The notes beneath the pieces are model-generated. The model was not told the DNA's origin. It made no database searches and saw only the letters and a list, made by a program, of their open reading frames with translations. DNA of 12,765 nt from a virus (taxonomy: Duplodnaviria > Heunggongvirae > Uroviricota > Caudoviricetes), in IMG/VR virus record IMGVR_UViG_2634166457_000023, positions 1 to 12,765 of that record, one strand, 5' to 3'. The position numbers and the translations under genes were made by a program. This document shows, piece by piece, positions 4,455 to 11,858 of the stretch; the first letter of the stretch is position 1; every line of letters starts with the position of its first letter.

Positions 4455-4512
4455 AAAAAGGGCGGTAGAGCAGTCACGGAGTAAAACTGATACCGCCAAA
4501 CGTCACCAGAAA
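4455..4512 (-). ncRNA. dicF: DicF small RNA (antisense inhibitor of ftsZ translation), with 3' terminator-like hairpin and U-run
   Basis: Minus-strand sequence UUUCUGGUGACGUUUGGCGGUAUCAGUUUUACUCCGUGACUGCUCUACCGCCCUUUUU matches my memory of E. coli DicF almost base for base. It ends in a GGCGGUA...UACCGCC stem plus U5. Located upstream of dicB as in Qin. Confidence 0.75.
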
Positions 4513-4846
4513 ATTGATAACAGAGGGCGTTGCAGCGGGGTTGTCACTTAAGCGTATGGTCAACCTGACAACCCGGTGTCCTCAACGGGGAAGGAATAAC
4601 CCCGCCATACTTACCGCCGCGCCATTTCGCGGAGTGCCACAACCGGAAGCGCACGGTCGACGAAAATTTAACGACAGGCTGTCTATGAACCAGCTACCTC
4701 GCCGTGCGCTTTCGCGTTATGGTCTGACTTTTCAGGGAAATATCCTTTCAGTAAACTGTCAGTGCCGGATGCTCACCCGTGTCCGGCGCACGCACTCCAC
4801 CTCACCCGTGGAGAACTCCTTAATCACCAACCCTCAGGAGGGTGAA

Positions 4847-5122
4847 ATGTCGACTGAAAATGATGAAATCATTAACTCCCTGATACGCCAGATTAATAAT
4901 TTTGATAAAGCATTGCAGCATGCTGCGGCGCGTAGTGATATAACTCTTTTAGCAATTTCATTTCTTGCATCTGTTATGGATAAAAATGAAGTCGTACGAC
5001 AGAGTCTTGTTGATTATATCGACTCGCTTCAACCCGGCACTTTCAATCATGAGAGCTTCAATCATGAGAAAGAGCATGTTAAATCTGTAATTAATTCTCT
5101 TGTTTTGAATCAAAAGAATTAA
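4847..5122 (+). CDS. Hypothetical protein (91 aa), AT-rich cargo gene convergent with the leftward operon
   Basis: ATG at 4847 preceded by GGAGG with a 5-nt spacer. Product looks helical with an in-frame FNHES/FNHEK repeat. Marked drop in GC relative to flanks. The upstream part of track ORF 4514..5122 is Arg-rich and treated as non-coding. Confidence 0.5.
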   Translation: MSTENDEIINSLIRQINNFDKALQHAAARSDITLLAISFLASVMDKNEVVRQSLVDYIDSLQPGTFNHESFNHEKEHVKSVINSLVLNQKN

Positions 5123-5420
5123 TGCTTTTTGTTGCAAAGTAATTTTCAAGGGGGTCTATTCGAATCCCTTTCTTTTTCATTAACAAGCCAAACCCCTTAT
5201 CAATGATGTCCATTAATTCCAGGAAGTATTTTTCATGTAAATCCTGGTTATCAGAGAGCTGCTTCTCTTCGTACAGCCCGATAAAGGCACGACGCACGTT
5301 ACCGGATATAGTATCGATGGTTTCTTTTTCTACGGTACTAAGGTCAAGAGTCGCCAGTTGAGAACGAACTATATTCGATGCCATTTCTTGGAATGGTATT
5401 GGTAAATCTTTAAATTCCAT
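5091..5420 (-). CDS. Hypothetical protein (109 aa), AT-rich cargo gene in the leftward operon
   Basis: ATG at 5420 preceded by GAGG at 6 nt. Protein-like composition with no family recognised. Its 3' end overlaps the convergent gene at 4847-5122 by 32 bp. Confidence 0.55.
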   Translation of the reverse strand: MEFKDLPIPFQEMASNIVRSQLATLDLSTVEKETIDTISGNVRRAFIGLYEEKQLSDNQDLHEKYFLELMDIIDKGFGLLMKKKGIRIDPLENYFATKSINSFDSKQEN

Positions 5421-5455
5421 CGTCAACCTCATCAGTCAGTTATTCACTCGGATAC

Positions 5456-5662
5456 TTAACCATTCTGGCAACATTTAATGCCGCCGCTTCTGTCAGGCTG
5501 GCGATGCTCTGGTCCAGTTCGGCCATTTTTTTTGGCCTGTAGCGTCTTGGAATCATTGACCCATTTCAGGTCCTGCGCAGCCTTAACTTTTTGTTTCATC
5601 CACTCATAAATCTCATCATCGGTATAGCCTGGTGCGATGATGATGGGTTCTGGTTTCTGCAT
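5456..5662 (-). CDS. ydfC: YdfC-like small protein (68 aa as read); probably frame-disrupted at an A8 tract
   Basis: ATG at 5662 with GAGGAA RBS. After the homopolymer (plus T8 at 5526-5533) the read frame encodes low-complexity NGRTGPEHRQPDRSGG, while the neighbouring frame encodes helix-like MAELDQSIASLTEAAALNVARMVKYPSE ending at 5440. Position after ydfB matches Qin ydfC. Confidence 0.5.
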   Translation of the reverse strand: MQKPEPIIIAPGYTDDEIYEWMKQKVKAAQDLKWVNDSKTLQAKKNGRTGPEHRQPDRSGGIKCCQNG

Positions 5663-5691
5663 AATGATTCCTCGCGGTGCTGTTTCGCTTA

Positions 5692-5820
5692 TTAGCCGTT
5701 AGATTTTGCCGAACTGGAAAGCGCCTCTTTAAACTCACTAAAGCTGAGAGCGTCTTCGCCTTCGGCAAGGCCTTCGAAGTATTCTTCGTAAGCCTTTTCC
5801 ATGATTGCGTCGAAATCCAT
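5692..5820 (-). CDS. ydfB: YdfB-like small acidic protein (42 aa)
   Basis: ORF below the track threshold, found by hand: MDFDAIMEKAYEEYFEGLAEGEDALSFSEFKEALSSSAKSNG. Strong AGGTGA RBS. Lies between the YdfA-like and YdfC-like genes. The track ORF 5616..5825 is in a different frame. Confidence 0.55.
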   Translation of the reverse strand: MDFDAIMEKAYEEYFEGLAEGEDALSFSEFKEALSSSAKSNG

Positions 5821-5821
5821 A

Positions 5822-5977
5822 TCACTCACCTGAGTTTCTTTCCAGCCAGCGACGCGCGCCAGATTCGGTTTTAAACGTGGTGCTTTTGGTATACGTCATC
5901 GCGGTGAACGTACCGTCCTGGTTTGGGAACACGCCGCACACCAGAGATTCGTTGTTGCCAAGATCGATAGTATCCAT
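5822..5977 (-). CDS. ydfA: YdfA/YdaF-like small protein (51 aa, DUF1391-like)
   Basis: Hand-found ORF MDTIDLGNNESLVCGVFPNQDGTFTAMTYTKSTTFKTESGARRWLERNSGE. GAGG RBS 7 nt upstream. First gene downstream of the PL-like promoter. Family assignment is from memory. Confidence 0.6.
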   Translation of the reverse strand: MDTIDLGNNESLVCGVFPNQDGTFTAMTYTKSTTFKTESGARRWLERNSGE

Positions 5978-6149
5978 GCTGACCTCATTTCCCCTTAACG
6001 CCGGGGTAGCGGAACAAAAACCTGCTGCATAGTTAAAAGTTGAACCCCGCCGTCACTTTCGAATGCCTCGGGCTGGCTACATTGACCCCTGACCACTGCC
6101 TGGTAACTCGAAGTATTGCCCGGCGTTCTGTGGGGCGGGGTGGGTTGGT

Positions 6150-6267: not shown

Positions 6268-6546
6268 TTAGGGAAACTGGCGTCTTGCGTGGATCACGTT
6301 TACTACTTCAACGCTTGATGTTGTTACGCGGTATAGAATTATATAGTTAGGGTGGGCCACAATCTCACGCAAGCCAGGTACTCTGTCGCTTGGTGGGTAT
6401 AAATACGGATGTTCGGATAATGGCAGCACACAACCCCTTAATCGCTGCCATAAGCGTTCAGCCGCATCTATGTCGAAACGAGCAATATAACTAGTTATAT
6501 CATCTAGGTCGGTATCTGCGCTTTCAAGCCATAACACGGGTAACAT
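6268..6546 (-). CDS. parE: ParE-family toxin (92 aa), ParE2-like, of a three-gene repressor-antitoxin-toxin operon
   Basis: C-terminal LREIVAHPNYIILYRV...VEVVNVIHARRQFP is typical of ParE/RelE-fold toxins. ATG at 6546 lies 1 nt after the antitoxin stop. The track start at 6642 is rejected. Confidence 0.8.
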   Translation of the reverse strand: MLPVLWLESADTDLDDITSYIARFDIDAAERLWQRLRGCVLPLSEHPYLYPPSDRVPGLREIVAHPNYIILYRVTTSSVEVVNVIHARRQFP

Positions 6547-6547
6547 T

Positions 6548-6739
6548 TTACTGCTTGCTCCGTTCCTTCCGCATTTTAGCAAAGCGTTCTGCCATTCTGC
6601 GCTCAACTTCGTCATGGGGAATTGCTGGGCGCGGATCTGCAAGGCTCGTTGCTACTTTCGCACGCAGCCATTCGTTGTAACTGTTTTCTTGTTCAATGGT
6701 TTCAAATTCAGAAACCATTGGTGAAAGGGCTCTATTCAT
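6548..6739 (-). CDS. Small antitoxin (63 aa), PaaA-like partner of the ParE toxin
   Basis: ATG at 6739 preceded by GGAGGA at 5 nt. Size and position match the PaaA-type antitoxins of paaR-paaA-parE operons described in E. coli O157 prophages (from memory). Starts 20 nt after the repressor stop. Confidence 0.65.
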   Translation of the reverse strand: MNRALSPMVSEFETIEQENSYNEWLRAKVATSLADPRPAIPHDEVERRMAERFAKMRKERSKQ

Positions 6740-6759
6740 GTTTCCTCCGGTTTTATAAC

Positions 6760-7131
6760 TCAGGCGCGGCGGCATTTTTGCGCCGCAATCCATCTCGCTA
6801 TGAGATCTTCCATTGATTCTTTTTTCTGCTTTAACTCGTTGATTATCTGGCGTTGCTCATCCTCAGGGAAGGCTGAAAAAATCTGCAATAATTCCAGTTG
6901 ATTAGACGTTAACCCTGCATGTGGTGGAGAAACCTCCGGTTGTTCTGCGTATTCCGCATCCAGATACCCTTCCGGCATCCCGTATGTTTGCTCTATTCTT
7001 CTGGCAGCCTTTTCTCCAAACGAGGCTCTCCCACTCATTAGTTGAGATAGGTAGCTCTTCTCTTTGGGTGGCAGAGTTTTATCTTTAAACCACTCCTTGA
7101 GACGTAAACGGCGAATTTCTTTTTTTTGCAT
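6760..7131 (-). CDS. HTH (XRE-type) prophage repressor, CI/DicA-like, lacking a peptidase S24 domain (123 aa); possibly also the PaaR-type regulator
   Basis: N-terminal HTH KEKSYLSQLMSGRASFGEKAARRIEQTYGMP. C-terminal LTSNQLELLQIFSAFPEDEQ resembles DicA as I recall it. Divergent from the cro-like gene. ATG at 7131 has no SD but sits 6 nt after a GATAAT -10, so likely leaderless like lambda cI. The track GTG start at 7194 is rejected. Confidence 0.75.
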   Translation of the reverse strand: MQKKEIRRLRLKEWFKDKTLPPKEKSYLSQLMSGRASFGEKAARRIEQTYGMPEGYLDAEYAEQPEVSPPHAGLTSNQLELLQIFSAFPEDEQRQIINELKQKKESMEDLIARWIAAQKCRRA

Positions 7132-11295: not shown

Positions 11296-11595
11296 TTATA
11301 AGAAATCGGTTTCATAACTTTGCCCACCATGATAGATACCGACAATAAAGACTTTTCTGCCATCAACGGCAAAAGCAATAATCGTTCTGTGGCGGAAATG
11401 AGTTACCCGCATCCCCTGGCGAATATCATCGCGTTTATTGCCCCGATGCGGGAATGTAGAAAACCCATCAAGATAATCAAGAAGCGCATTGGCATAATTG
11501 TCAGCAATGACGTTCCCTGCTTTCTCCGTTATATATCTGTGCAGGTTGATTATTTGTTGTTCGGCCTCAGGAGTAATGATGACTTCATATGTCAT
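11296..11595 (-). CDS. parE: ParE/RelE-family toxin (99 aa)
   Basis: Size, composition and position (start 5 nt after the stop of a ribbon-helix-helix antitoxin) are typical of ParE. C-terminal RKVFIVGIYHGGQ-type strand motif. Confidence 0.8.
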   Translation of the reverse strand: MTYEVIITPEAEQQIINLHRYITEKAGNVIADNYANALLDYLDGFSTFPHRGNKRDDIRQGMRVTHFRHRTIIAFAVDGRKVFIVGIYHGGQSYETDFL

Positions 11596-11600
11596 GCAGA

Positions 11601-11858
11601 TTACTTCCCGGATCGAATCGCGGCGCGAACCTGTGAAATGGAGCGTCCGTTGTTTGGATTTTCACGGATAGAATCAAGAGAGGGGGCGGCTGAATGCGTT
11701 AACCACGCTTCGATTGCTTTATCGCGCTCATTCAGTGCGCGAAGCCCTTCACGAATGACCTCGCTTTCTGAAGCATAGGCACCGGAAGCCACACGGGCGC
11801 GCACCATGTCAGCCATCTCGTTAGTTAATGTAATGCTGAATTGTTGGGTTGTACGCAT
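11601..11858 (-). CDS. parD: ParD-family antitoxin, ribbon-helix-helix (85 aa)
   Basis: FSITLTNEMADMVRARVASGAYASESEVIREGLRAL is a classic ParD/RHH signature. ATG at 11858 with GTGAGG RBS. The track start at 11921 is rejected. Confidence 0.8.
   Translation of the reverse strand: MRTTQQFSITLTNEMADMVRARVASGAYASESEVIREGLRALNERDKAIEAWLTHSAAPSLDSIRENPNNGRSISQVRAAIRSGK

What the first reader, a model, noticed from the sequence alone, without database searches (positions are those of the whole stretch)
5440..5662. Homopolymer A8 tract splits the YdfC-like gene into two frames
The frame starting at 5662 is protein-like up to the run of eight A (plus T8 at 5526-5533), then encodes Gly/Arg/Pro/Cys-rich junk until its stop at 5456. 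The adjacent frame encodes a helix-like 28-aa tail ending at 5440, 12 nt before the next SD. Deleting one A would fuse them into a 73-aa protein, close to the 72 aa I recall for K-12 YdfC. This is a sequencing or assembly homopolymer error, a real pseudogenising mutation, or slippage-prone phase variation. The tract is also flanked by GGCC...GGCC and can form a small hairpin.
Basis: seen in the sequence. Interest (0 to 1): 0.4.

Follow-up and report, generated by a model that had tools for sequence, protein, structure and literature searches.

The report
Frameshifted prophage ydfC gene copy
A small prophage gene of unknown function (ydfC) in E. coli M114 carries one extra base in a run of eight A's that scrambles the last third of its protein; this is an ordinary frameshift mutation, not a new mechanism.

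Summary
On the minus strand, a YdfC-family gene starts at 5662. It is protein-like for 45 codons and meets an A8 run at 5533-5526. It then reads 23 Gly/Arg/Pro/Cys-rich codons to a stop at 5458-5456. The family's conserved C-terminal helix lies in the +1 frame (ATG 5526-5524, stop 5442-5440). A profile of 32 intact homologues matches frame A at positions 1-45 (88.7 bits) and frame B at 42-71 (E 3e-10), so the break lies inside the run. With A7, a 73-aa protein aligns without gaps to the 71-72-aa family and keeps its invariant I53, L56 and L62.

The window is 100% identical to E. coli M114 (GCA_001186315.2). The same A8 appears in a separately assembled SRA run, so a sequencing error is unlikely. 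None of 33 distinct ydfC DNA alleles has a run longer than A5. No A7, A9 or A10 product of this allele exists in about 15 billion public proteins. Conserved recoding and tract-length variation are therefore unsupported.

Restoring the frame needs a one-base deletion or two-base insertion in the mRNA, or a +1 ribosomal slip, and no stimulatory element is present.

Verdict: a real, non-programmed frameshift allele in a lambdoid prophage. Low interest.

The parts
5528..5662 (-). Codons 1-45 of the ydfC-family gene (MQKPEPIIIAPGYTDDEIYEWMKQKVKAAQDLKWVNDSKTLQAKK), the intact N-terminal part
   Evidence: ORF list. Matches positions 1-45 of a profile of 32 intact homologues, 88.7 bits, E 3.5e-29. Matches PHROG 1744 positions 1-44.
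5669..5673 (-). Shine-Dalgarno-like GAGGA, 6 nt upstream of the ydfC ATG
   Evidence: Read directly from the sequence. Conserved in K-12 and in strain 2013C-3181.
5526..5533 (-). A8 homopolymer. It is the site of the net +1-nt frameshift, covering codons 44, 45 and the first two bases of codon 46.
   Evidence: The DNA alignment to intact ydfC shows a single 1-nt gap here. Homology changes frame within this run. No homologue has a run longer than A5.
5456..5527 (-). Out-of-frame continuation in frame 0: NGRTGPEHRQPDRSGGIKCCQNG plus the stop at 5458-5456
   Evidence: It has no similarity to the family in the alignment with homologues.
5440..5526 (-). The +1 frame segment encoding the family's C-terminal helix (MAELDQSIASLTEAAALNVARMVKYPSE) plus the stop at 5442-5440
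   Evidence: Matches profile positions 42-71, 28 bits, E 3e-10. Keeps the invariant I53, L56 and L62. Lies within the predicted long helix 15-69.
5521..5537 (-). Inverted repeat GGCCA / UGGCC around the run: a predicted 5-bp stem with a 7-nt A loop
   Evidence: Absent from all homologous alleles. Probably incidental.
5091..5420 (-). Next gene of the operon (109 aa, PHROG 6937, unknown function); SD GAGG at 5430-5427
   Evidence: Gene call in the M114 record. PHROG match E 1e-67.
5692..5977 (-). Upstream operon genes ydfA (5977-5822, DUF1391) and ydfB (5820-5692)
   Evidence: Same order as in K-12 and other prophages.
4460..4511 (-). DicF sRNA gene downstream in the same operon
   Evidence: Rfam RF00039, 74.1 bits against a gathering score of 48.

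Best explanation
This is a genuine, non-programmed frameshift allele of the prophage gene ydfC. The gene is a small protein of unknown function, third in the ydfA-ydfB-ydfC-dicF-dicB early operon of a lambdoid prophage in E. coli M114.

The likely origin is inferred, not shown. Substitutions in this divergent allele (AAA AAC CTG-like to AAA AAA ATG) created an A7 run, and replication slippage then added one A. The ribosome therefore reads 45 correct codons and then 23 out-of-frame codons. It stops 16 nt before the normal stop. The product is a 68-aa protein that keeps the highly conserved N-terminal motif. It has lost the distal 24 residues of the predicted long helix (residues 15-69).

The gene is thus either inactivated or reduced to its N-terminal part. 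Because the false stop lies so close to the true one, downstream expression (the 109-aa ORF, DicF, DicB) should be barely affected. Any full-length YdfC would arise only from low-level error frameshifting or slippage.
For: Shown by tool results:
- The window is 100% identical over 11,662 nt to E. coli M114 contig KQ241478.1, and over 1,041 nt to a Logan contig assembled from SRR28921530. Both carry A8.
- The 68-aa product is already deposited as KNA40317.1 / WP_054250475.1, 'hypothetical protein'.
- The DNA alignment to intact ydfC of K-12 and strain 2013C-3181 has exactly one extra base, at the run.
- The family profile matches frame A at positions 1-45 and frame B at positions 42-71.
- The PHROG 1744 score rises by 29 bits and coverage goes from 44 of 68 to 68 of 68 profile positions after removing one A.
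- The corrected protein aligns without gaps and keeps every invariant column.
- Of 78 IMG/VR loci analysed, 76 hold a complete gene, and 74 of these encode 71-72 aa. None of 33 distinct DNA alleles has a run longer than A5.
- Other sporadic disruptions of ydfC exist: P0015 (50 aa, extra T), L072 (extra A) and L081 (stop lost). This fits relaxed selection in prophages.
- A syntenic prophage in E. coli 2022H047 has an intact 72-aa ydfC at the same place.
- An in-frame A8 run in the neighbouring repressor-like gene (7120-7127) is identical in that related prophage, so A8 runs are assembled and maintained stably here.
- AlphaFold model, pLDDT 88: one long helix spanning residues 15-69. The shift at residue 46 therefore removes the distal 24 residues.
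Against: - No read-level data could be inspected.
- The number of truly independent isolates is unknown. The tool reports 2 and 3 samples for the two contigs.
- No intact A7 version of this particular allele exists anywhere searched, so the ancestral state is inferred, not observed.
- The tail remains an open, family-like reading frame. That fits a recent mutation, but also a recoded gene.
- dN/dS of the tail (0.22-0.85) is not clearly higher than that of the head (0.11-0.75), but the segments are too short to be informative.
- A8 is close to the length at which RNA polymerase slippage becomes appreciable (PMC1088944). Error frameshift suppression of 1-10% has been measured in E. coli for single-base deletions (PMC10861913). 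Some full-length protein cannot be excluded.
Confidence: 0.8

Rival explanations
1. Sequencing or assembly homopolymer error: the real genome has A7 and an intact 73-aa gene.
For: Homopolymers are classic error sites. The allele is rare, and its corrected form would be a perfectly normal YdfC. No reads could be inspected.
Against: The same A8 occurs in the NCBI assembly of M114 and in a Logan contig built independently from SRR28921530, 100% identical over 1,041 nt. The exact 73-aa A7 product is absent from about 15 billion predicted proteins, which include the Logan assemblies. A second A8 run in the window is assembled in frame and is identical in a complete genome.
Confidence: 0.07
2. Recoding ('pseudo-pseudogene'): full-length YdfC is made on purpose or usefully. 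The route would be transcriptional slippage on the A8 run (mRNA with A7 or A10) or a +1 ribosomal slip of tRNA-Lys (AAA AAA A to A AAA AAA, then AUG).
For: - A and T runs are slippage-prone. Selection against them becomes evident at about 9 nt, and some IS elements use 8 A (PMC1088944).
- The tail ORF is intact and family-like.
- The A7 and A10 readings give complete proteins.
- tRNA-Lys on A-runs is known to be slippery (established knowledge).
Against: - The run is not conserved: 0 of 33 alleles have it.
- The two-frame layout is found only in this allele.
- In E. coli, slippage at A and T runs is overwhelmingly +1 insertion. Here that gives A9 and a 56-aa dead-end product. Single-base deletions in runs are rare, making up fewer than 1% of transcription deletions (PMC5574713).
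- There is no slow or stop codon in the A site (AAU) and no SD-like stimulator upstream, as prfB-type +1 frameshifting requires.
- The hairpin has the run in its loop rather than lying upstream or downstream of it.
Confidence: 0.05
3. Slippage-driven phase variation: the tract switches between A7 (on) and A8 (off) in the population, as at a contingency locus.
For: An A8 run is a replication-slippage hotspot, and a single-step change restores the gene.
Against: Every public occurrence is A8. No A5, A6, A7, A9, A10 or A11 product of this allele appears among the hits or clusters. E. coli with intact mismatch repair is not known for homopolymer contingency loci (general knowledge). The gene is a cytoplasmic-looking prophage protein of unknown function, not a surface or restriction-modification gene. 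Only a handful of samples exist, so the test is weak.
Confidence: 0.05
4. Split gene: the 28-aa (from ATG 5526) or 38-aa (from ATG 5556) tail is translated on its own and works together with the 45-aa head.
For: An ATG opens the tail frame right at the run, and an A-rich leader precedes it.
Against: There is no Shine-Dalgarno sequence. The AUG lies in the 3' arm of the predicted hairpin. Ribosomes in frame 0 pass over it and stop 70 nt later, so termination-reinitiation is not available. Neither peptide is called anywhere in the public collection. No homologue is organised this way.
Confidence: 0.02

Closest known systems
YdfC of the E. coli K-12 Qin cryptic prophage (72 aa; PHROG 1744; dicBF operon ydfA-ydfB-ydfC-dicF-dicB)
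   Same: Same operon position, between ydfB and DicF/dicB and downstream of a cI-like repressor. Same N-terminal motif, MQK(P/R)EP(I/V)IIAP(G/D)YTDDE(I/L)YEWM. After correction, 60% identity over the full length.
   Different: One extra base in an A-run puts the C-terminal 28 codons out of frame. The allele is divergent, with at most 81.5% DNA identity to any ydfC in 5,426 complete E. coli genomes. An extra 109-aa ORF and an antisense 145-aa ORF lie between ydfC and dicF. The function of YdfC itself is unknown (PMC5069750).
'Pseudo-pseudogenes' rescued by transcriptional slippage at A9/T9 runs (Baranov et al. 2005, PMC1088944; Thermus dnaX A9; IS elements with A9 or A8)
   Same: A disrupted ORF whose frame change coincides with a poly-A run, with an intact single-ORF homologue elsewhere.
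   Different: The run is 8 nt, not 9. It is not conserved in any homologue. Rescue needs a deletion of 1 nt or an insertion of 2 nt, whereas E. coli RNA polymerase mostly inserts 1 nt (PMC5574713). No expression data exist.
Sporadic frameshift and stop-loss alleles of ydfC in other prophages (P0015, L072, L081, P0002)
   Same: Single-base insertions or stop-codon changes that alter the C-terminus of an otherwise conserved small prophage gene.
   Different: Those sit at runs of one or two bases or at the stop codon. This one sits in the only long homopolymer seen in the family.

Membership tests
YdfC family (PHROG 1744; PGAP 'protein YdfC') | N-terminal conserved motif MQK.EP.IIAP.YTDDE.YEWM | tested here: met
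   Profile positions 1-45 matched at 88.7 bits. PHROG 1744 E 2.4e-20. Invariant columns are kept.
YdfC family (PHROG 1744; PGAP 'protein YdfC') | A single ORF of 71-72 aa with the conserved C-terminal helix (I53, L56, L62) in the same frame | tested here: not met
   The frame-0 product is 68 aa with an unrelated tail. The helix is encoded in the +1 frame. The feature is met only after deleting one A.
YdfC family (PHROG 1744; PGAP 'protein YdfC') | Synteny: ydfA-ydfB-ydfC upstream of dicF/dicB, next to the prophage immunity region | tested here: met
   DUF1391 (ydfA), ydfB, DicF (Rfam, 74 bits), DicB and DUF1482 lie in order. The order is comparable in K-12 and other prophages.
Programmed transcriptional slippage sites | A or T run of 9 or more (8 in a few cases), conserved in length and position among homologues with the same two-ORF layout | tested here: not met
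   The run is 8 nt. 0 of 33 distinct ydfC alleles has a run longer than A5. No other two-frame homologue turned up in the protein search. The criterion is taken from PMC1088944.
Programmed transcriptional slippage sites | Heterogeneous mRNA run lengths that produce the alternative-frame product | not testable with these tools
   This needs RNA sequencing of the locus. Only A7 or A10 transcripts would restore the frame.
Programmed +1 ribosomal frameshifting (prfB type) | Shift-prone P-site codon plus a slow or stop A-site codon, an upstream SD-like stimulator, and conservation | tested here: not met
   The P-site AAA can re-pair in +1. However, the A-site codon is AAU, no SD-like element lies 3 nt upstream (the sequence is CUACAGGCC), and the site is not conserved.
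Simple-sequence-repeat phase variation (contingency locus) | Tract-length polymorphism among isolates or within populations | tested here: inconclusive
   Only A8 is found in public data, and no product of any other tract length is present. Very few samples carry the allele, and no read-level data were available.
Sequencing artefact | Not reproducible in an independent data set | tested here: not met
   The identical A8 is present in NCBI GCA_001186315.2 and in the Logan assembly of SRR28921530.

The most novel reading that the evidence does not exclude
The A8 run makes this ydfC allele a 'pseudo-pseudogene'. Most translation would yield the 68-aa N-terminal fragment. A small, possibly condition-dependent fraction of full-length YdfC would be restored by a -1-nt transcriptional slip or a +1 slip of tRNA-Lys. 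One prophage gene would then give two products, or a throttled dose.
Probability: 0.05. Interest if true: 0.35.

Novelty: new member of a known kind. Interest (0 to 1): 0.1.

Why it matters
It matters little biologically. It is one more decaying or truncated accessory gene in a lambdoid prophage, and YdfC has no known function.

Its practical value is for annotation. WP_054250475.1 / KNA40317.1, now labelled 'hypothetical protein', is a frameshifted YdfC and should be flagged as such.

It is also a clean natural test case for measuring how much frame restoration E. coli achieves at a run one base short of the usual slippage threshold. The A8 run, the +1 requirement and the intact tail make it suitable for that.

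Tried and rejected
- **Search for an intact (A7) or otherwise length-variant copy of this allele: none found.**
  - 5,426 complete E. coli genomes: best full-length identity 81.5%.
  - GenBank phages and plasmids.
  - IMG/VR by DNA pattern and by protein.
  - JGI metagenomes by two DNA patterns.
  - GTDB species representatives by protein and by alignment. Both returned no confirmed relative, because the back-translated patterns were specific to the MQKPEP/DDEIYEW variants.
  - Exact look-up among about 15 billion proteins.
- **Pfam and NCBIfam:** no model for YdfC. Only sub-threshold chance hits appeared.
- **Antisense intrinsic terminator.** On the plus strand, a hairpin at 5510-5525 is followed by the T8 run, as flagged by the consensus scan. 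I rejected it: 3 sites were found against 2.3 expected, the fold is not better than shuffles (z = -0.22), and it competes with the GGCCA/UGGCC hairpin.
- **dN/dS of head versus tail against five homologues:** too few sites to date the frameshift or to detect relaxed selection.
- **Foldseek of the AlphaFold model against the PDB:** no match. This is expected for a single long helix, so it gives no clue to function.
- **Alternative origin by a 3-nt insertion plus a 2-nt deletion.** It would give AKKNLAEL and 74 aa. I rejected it as less parsimonious, because the A7 reading reproduces the family's exact spacing.

Full report
**Observation.** On the minus strand, an ATG at 5662 is preceded by GAGGA at 5673-5669. 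It opens a 68-codon ORF that ends at 5458-5456. The run of eight A occupies 5533-5526 (T8 on the plus strand). Up to the run, the product reads MQKPEPIIIAPGYTDDEIYEWMKQKVKAAQDLKWVNDSKTLQAKK. After it, the product reads NGRTGPEHRQPDRSGGIKCCQNG. The neighbouring frame reads, from the ATG formed by the last A of the run (5526-5524), MAELDQSIASLTEAAALNVARMVKYPSE, with a stop at 5442-5440. The next gene has GAGG at 5430-5427 and its annotated ATG at 5420. The only corrections are the distance to the next Shine-Dalgarno sequence (9 nt, not 12) and the hairpin geometry (5 bp and a 7-nt loop). An A8 run in itself is unremarkable: 2 occur in the window against 1.72 expected.

**What the gene is.** The window is the early region of a lambdoid prophage. 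On the minus strand it carries, in order:
- integrase (1-1119), excisionase-like ORF and exonuclease;
- DUF1482 and DicB (4285-4097);
- DicF sRNA (4511-4460; Rfam 74.1 bits);
- a 109-aa ORF;
- the gene in question;
- ydfB and ydfA (DUF1391);
- a ParE/PaaA2 toxin-antitoxin pair;
- a repressor-like gene and its divergent cro/YdaS-YdaT-replication genes.

This is the dicBF operon layout of the K-12 Qin prophage (PMC5069750). RefSeq annotates the homologous ORF in K-12 and many other strains as 'protein YdfC', 72 aa. YdfC has no Pfam or NCBIfam model. It belongs to PHROG 1744, of unknown function. The literature calls ydfA, ydfB and ydfC small proteins of unknown function (PMC5069750; bioRxiv 10.1101/2025.03.22.644768).

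**Where the frame breaks.**
- A DNA alignment of the window with intact ydfC of K-12 and strain 2013C-3181 contains a single 1-nt gap, at the run.
- I built a profile from 32 distinct intact homologues. It matches the 5662 frame at profile positions 1-45 (88.7 bits, E 3.5e-29). It matches the other frame at positions 42-71 (28.0 bits, E 3e-10). The third frame matches nothing.
- The overlap consists of the Lys codons that the run encodes in both frames. The switch is therefore confined to 5533-5524.
- Deleting one A raises the PHROG 1744 score from 73.2 to 102.6 bits and the coverage from 44 of 68 to 68 of 68 profile positions.
- The corrected 73-aa protein aligns with 15 homologues without any gap through the junction. 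It keeps the invariant I53, L56 and L62.
- A net insertion of one base in the run is therefore the most parsimonious description.

**Is it real?**
- The window is 100% identical over 11,662 nt to contig KQ241478.1 of E. coli M114 (GCA_001186315.2).
- The 68-aa product is deposited as KNA40317.1 / WP_054250475.1, 'hypothetical protein'.
- A 1,041-nt contig assembled independently by Logan from run SRR28921530 is also 100% identical, run included.
- The look-up reports 2 and 3 samples for the two contigs.
- A second A8 run, at 7127-7120, lies in frame at codons 2-4 of the repressor-like gene. It is identical in a related prophage of a complete genome. A8 runs are therefore read and maintained stably in this material.
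- I could not inspect reads, so a systematic error is not strictly excluded, but it is unlikely.

**Is the run conserved or variable?**
- Neither. I analysed 78 of the 79 IMG/VR loci. Of these, 76 hold a complete gene and 74 of those encode 71-72 aa.
- Adding K-12 and strain 2013C-3181 gives 33 distinct DNA alleles. The longest A run anywhere in the gene is 5.
- The equivalent site reads GCT GAA AAT CTG TCC or GTC AAA AAC CTG TCA.
- The allele in the window is divergent and rare. Its best identity to any ydfC in 5,426 complete E. coli genomes is 81.5%. The closest intact protein is 73% identical.
- It was not found in phages, plasmids, IMG/VR, JGI metagenomes or GTDB representatives.
- The A7 product is absent from about 15 billion proteins. 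The cluster of the 68-aa protein has one member, and no A6, A9 or A10 product appears among the hits.

**Origin (inferred).** Compare the window with the nearest alleles: CAG GTC AAA AAC CTG TCA GAA CTG against CAG GCC AAA AAA (A)TG GCC GAA CTG. Two C-to-A substitutions (Asn45Lys, Leu46Met) would have joined an A5 run into A7. Such a run is a replication-slippage hotspot, and a one-base expansion gives the present A8.

Other ydfC copies carry unrelated sporadic lesions:
- an extra T in P0015 (50 aa);
- an extra A in L072 (79 aa);
- a lost stop codon in L081 and in P0002.

This is what one expects of an accessory prophage gene under weak selection. A syntenic prophage in E. coli 2022H047 is about 95% identical in the flanks. 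It has a standard intact ydfC in the same slot, so the ydfC module here is a mosaic replacement.

**Consequence (partly inferred).**
- AlphaFold2, run on the corrected sequence with 11 homologues, predicts a short N-terminal strand and one long helix spanning residues 15-69 (mean pLDDT 88.1).
- The conserved tail positions (46, 53, 56, 60, 63) fall with heptad-like spacing, which suggests a coiled-coil interface. This is inference.
- The frameshift at residue 46 replaces the distal 24 helix residues with a Gly/Pro-rich sequence.
- The most conserved part of the family, residues 1-22, is untouched. The product may keep a partial activity. This cannot be judged because no function is known.
- The false stop (5456) lies only 16 nt before the true one (5440). 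Translation therefore still covers almost the whole cistron, and polarity on the downstream ORF, DicF and DicB should be negligible.

**Could the frame be restored during expression?**
- Only A7 or A10 in the mRNA, or a +1 ribosomal shift, gives full-length protein. A9 gives a 56-aa dead end.
- Genome-wide measurements in E. coli show that slippage at A and T runs is almost entirely single-base insertion, rising exponentially with run length. Deletions within runs are rare (PMC5574713).
- Selection against such runs becomes evident at about 9 nt, with 8 used in only a few IS elements (PMC1088944).
- For a prfB-type +1 shift, the site lacks a slow A-site codon (it is AAU) and an upstream SD-like element.
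- The hairpin GGCCA-A7-UGGCC is locally stable (-7.8 kcal/mol). However, the run sits in its loop, which is not the geometry of known stimulators. The hairpin is absent from all homologues.
- Error frameshifting in E. coli can be higher than once thought: 1-10% aggregate for suppression of single-base deletions (PMC10861913). A trace of full-length YdfC is therefore possible, but nothing indicates that it is programmed.

**Other readings checked.**
- The consensus scan flagged a terminator-like hairpin followed by the T8 run on the plus strand (5510-5533). The number of such sites is at chance level, and the fold is no better than shuffles.
- Independent translation of the tail has no Shine-Dalgarno sequence, and its AUG lies in the hairpin stem.
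- dN/dS of head and tail against five homologues is uninformative at this length.
- Foldseek of the model against the PDB found nothing.

**Verdict.** It is best explained as an authentic, non-programmed +1-nt frameshift in a homopolymer of a divergent ydfC allele in an E. coli M114 prophage. It is a new instance of a very familiar kind of lesion. Its main use is to correct the annotation of WP_054250475.1. The residual chance that the run serves recoding or phase variation is about 5% each.

Noticed in passing
window 7120-7127 (minus strand): A second A8 run lies in frame at codons 2-4 (ATG CAA AAA AAA GAA) of the 123-aa repressor-like gene (7131-6760). The sequence is identical in the related prophage of E. 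coli 2022H047 (L084). A slippage-prone run right after the start codon of an immunity-region gene might affect its expression.
   Followed up: partly
window 4460-4511 (minus strand): A complete DicF sRNA gene (Rfam RF00039, 74.1 bits, model positions 1-52 of 52). It lies downstream of ydfC, as in the K-12 Qin prophage, but is separated from ydfC by extra ORFs.
   Followed up: partly
window 4685-5122 (+) and 5091-5420 (-): Between ydfC and dicF, a 109-aa ORF (PHROG 6937, unknown function) converges on a 145-aa ORF annotated on the opposite strand, and the two overlap by 32 nt at their 3' ends. A terminator-like hairpin for the plus-strand gene (5148-5171) lies inside the 109-aa ORF. K-12 has neither gene.
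   Followed up: no
window 6268-6793 and 11296-11850 (minus strand): There are two separate ParE/RelE-type toxin-antitoxin pairs in one prophage: PaaA2-like antitoxin with ParE toxin next to the repressor, and ParD with ParE near the right end (Pfam labels).
   Followed up: no
P0015, P0002; L072:1501-1740; L081:1501-1860: Other ydfC copies carry independent lesions: an extra T giving a 50-aa product in a complete genome, an extra A giving a 79-aa product, and lost stop codons giving 86 aa or a fusion with the next ORF. In the IMG/VR sample, about 2 of 76 complete copies are disrupted.
   Followed up: partly
window 4847-5987 versus L084: The ydfA-ydfB-ydfC-109-aa block is a mosaic replacement. 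The flanks are 94-96% identical to the prophage of E. coli 2022H047, while ydfC is only 78% identical and its neighbours do not align. The block resembles other prophages at about 89% (L001, L005).
   Followed up: partly
window 5510-5533 (plus strand): A terminator-like motif (5-bp hairpin followed by the T8 run) lies antisense to ydfC. It is at chance level and folds no better than shuffles.
   Followed up: yes
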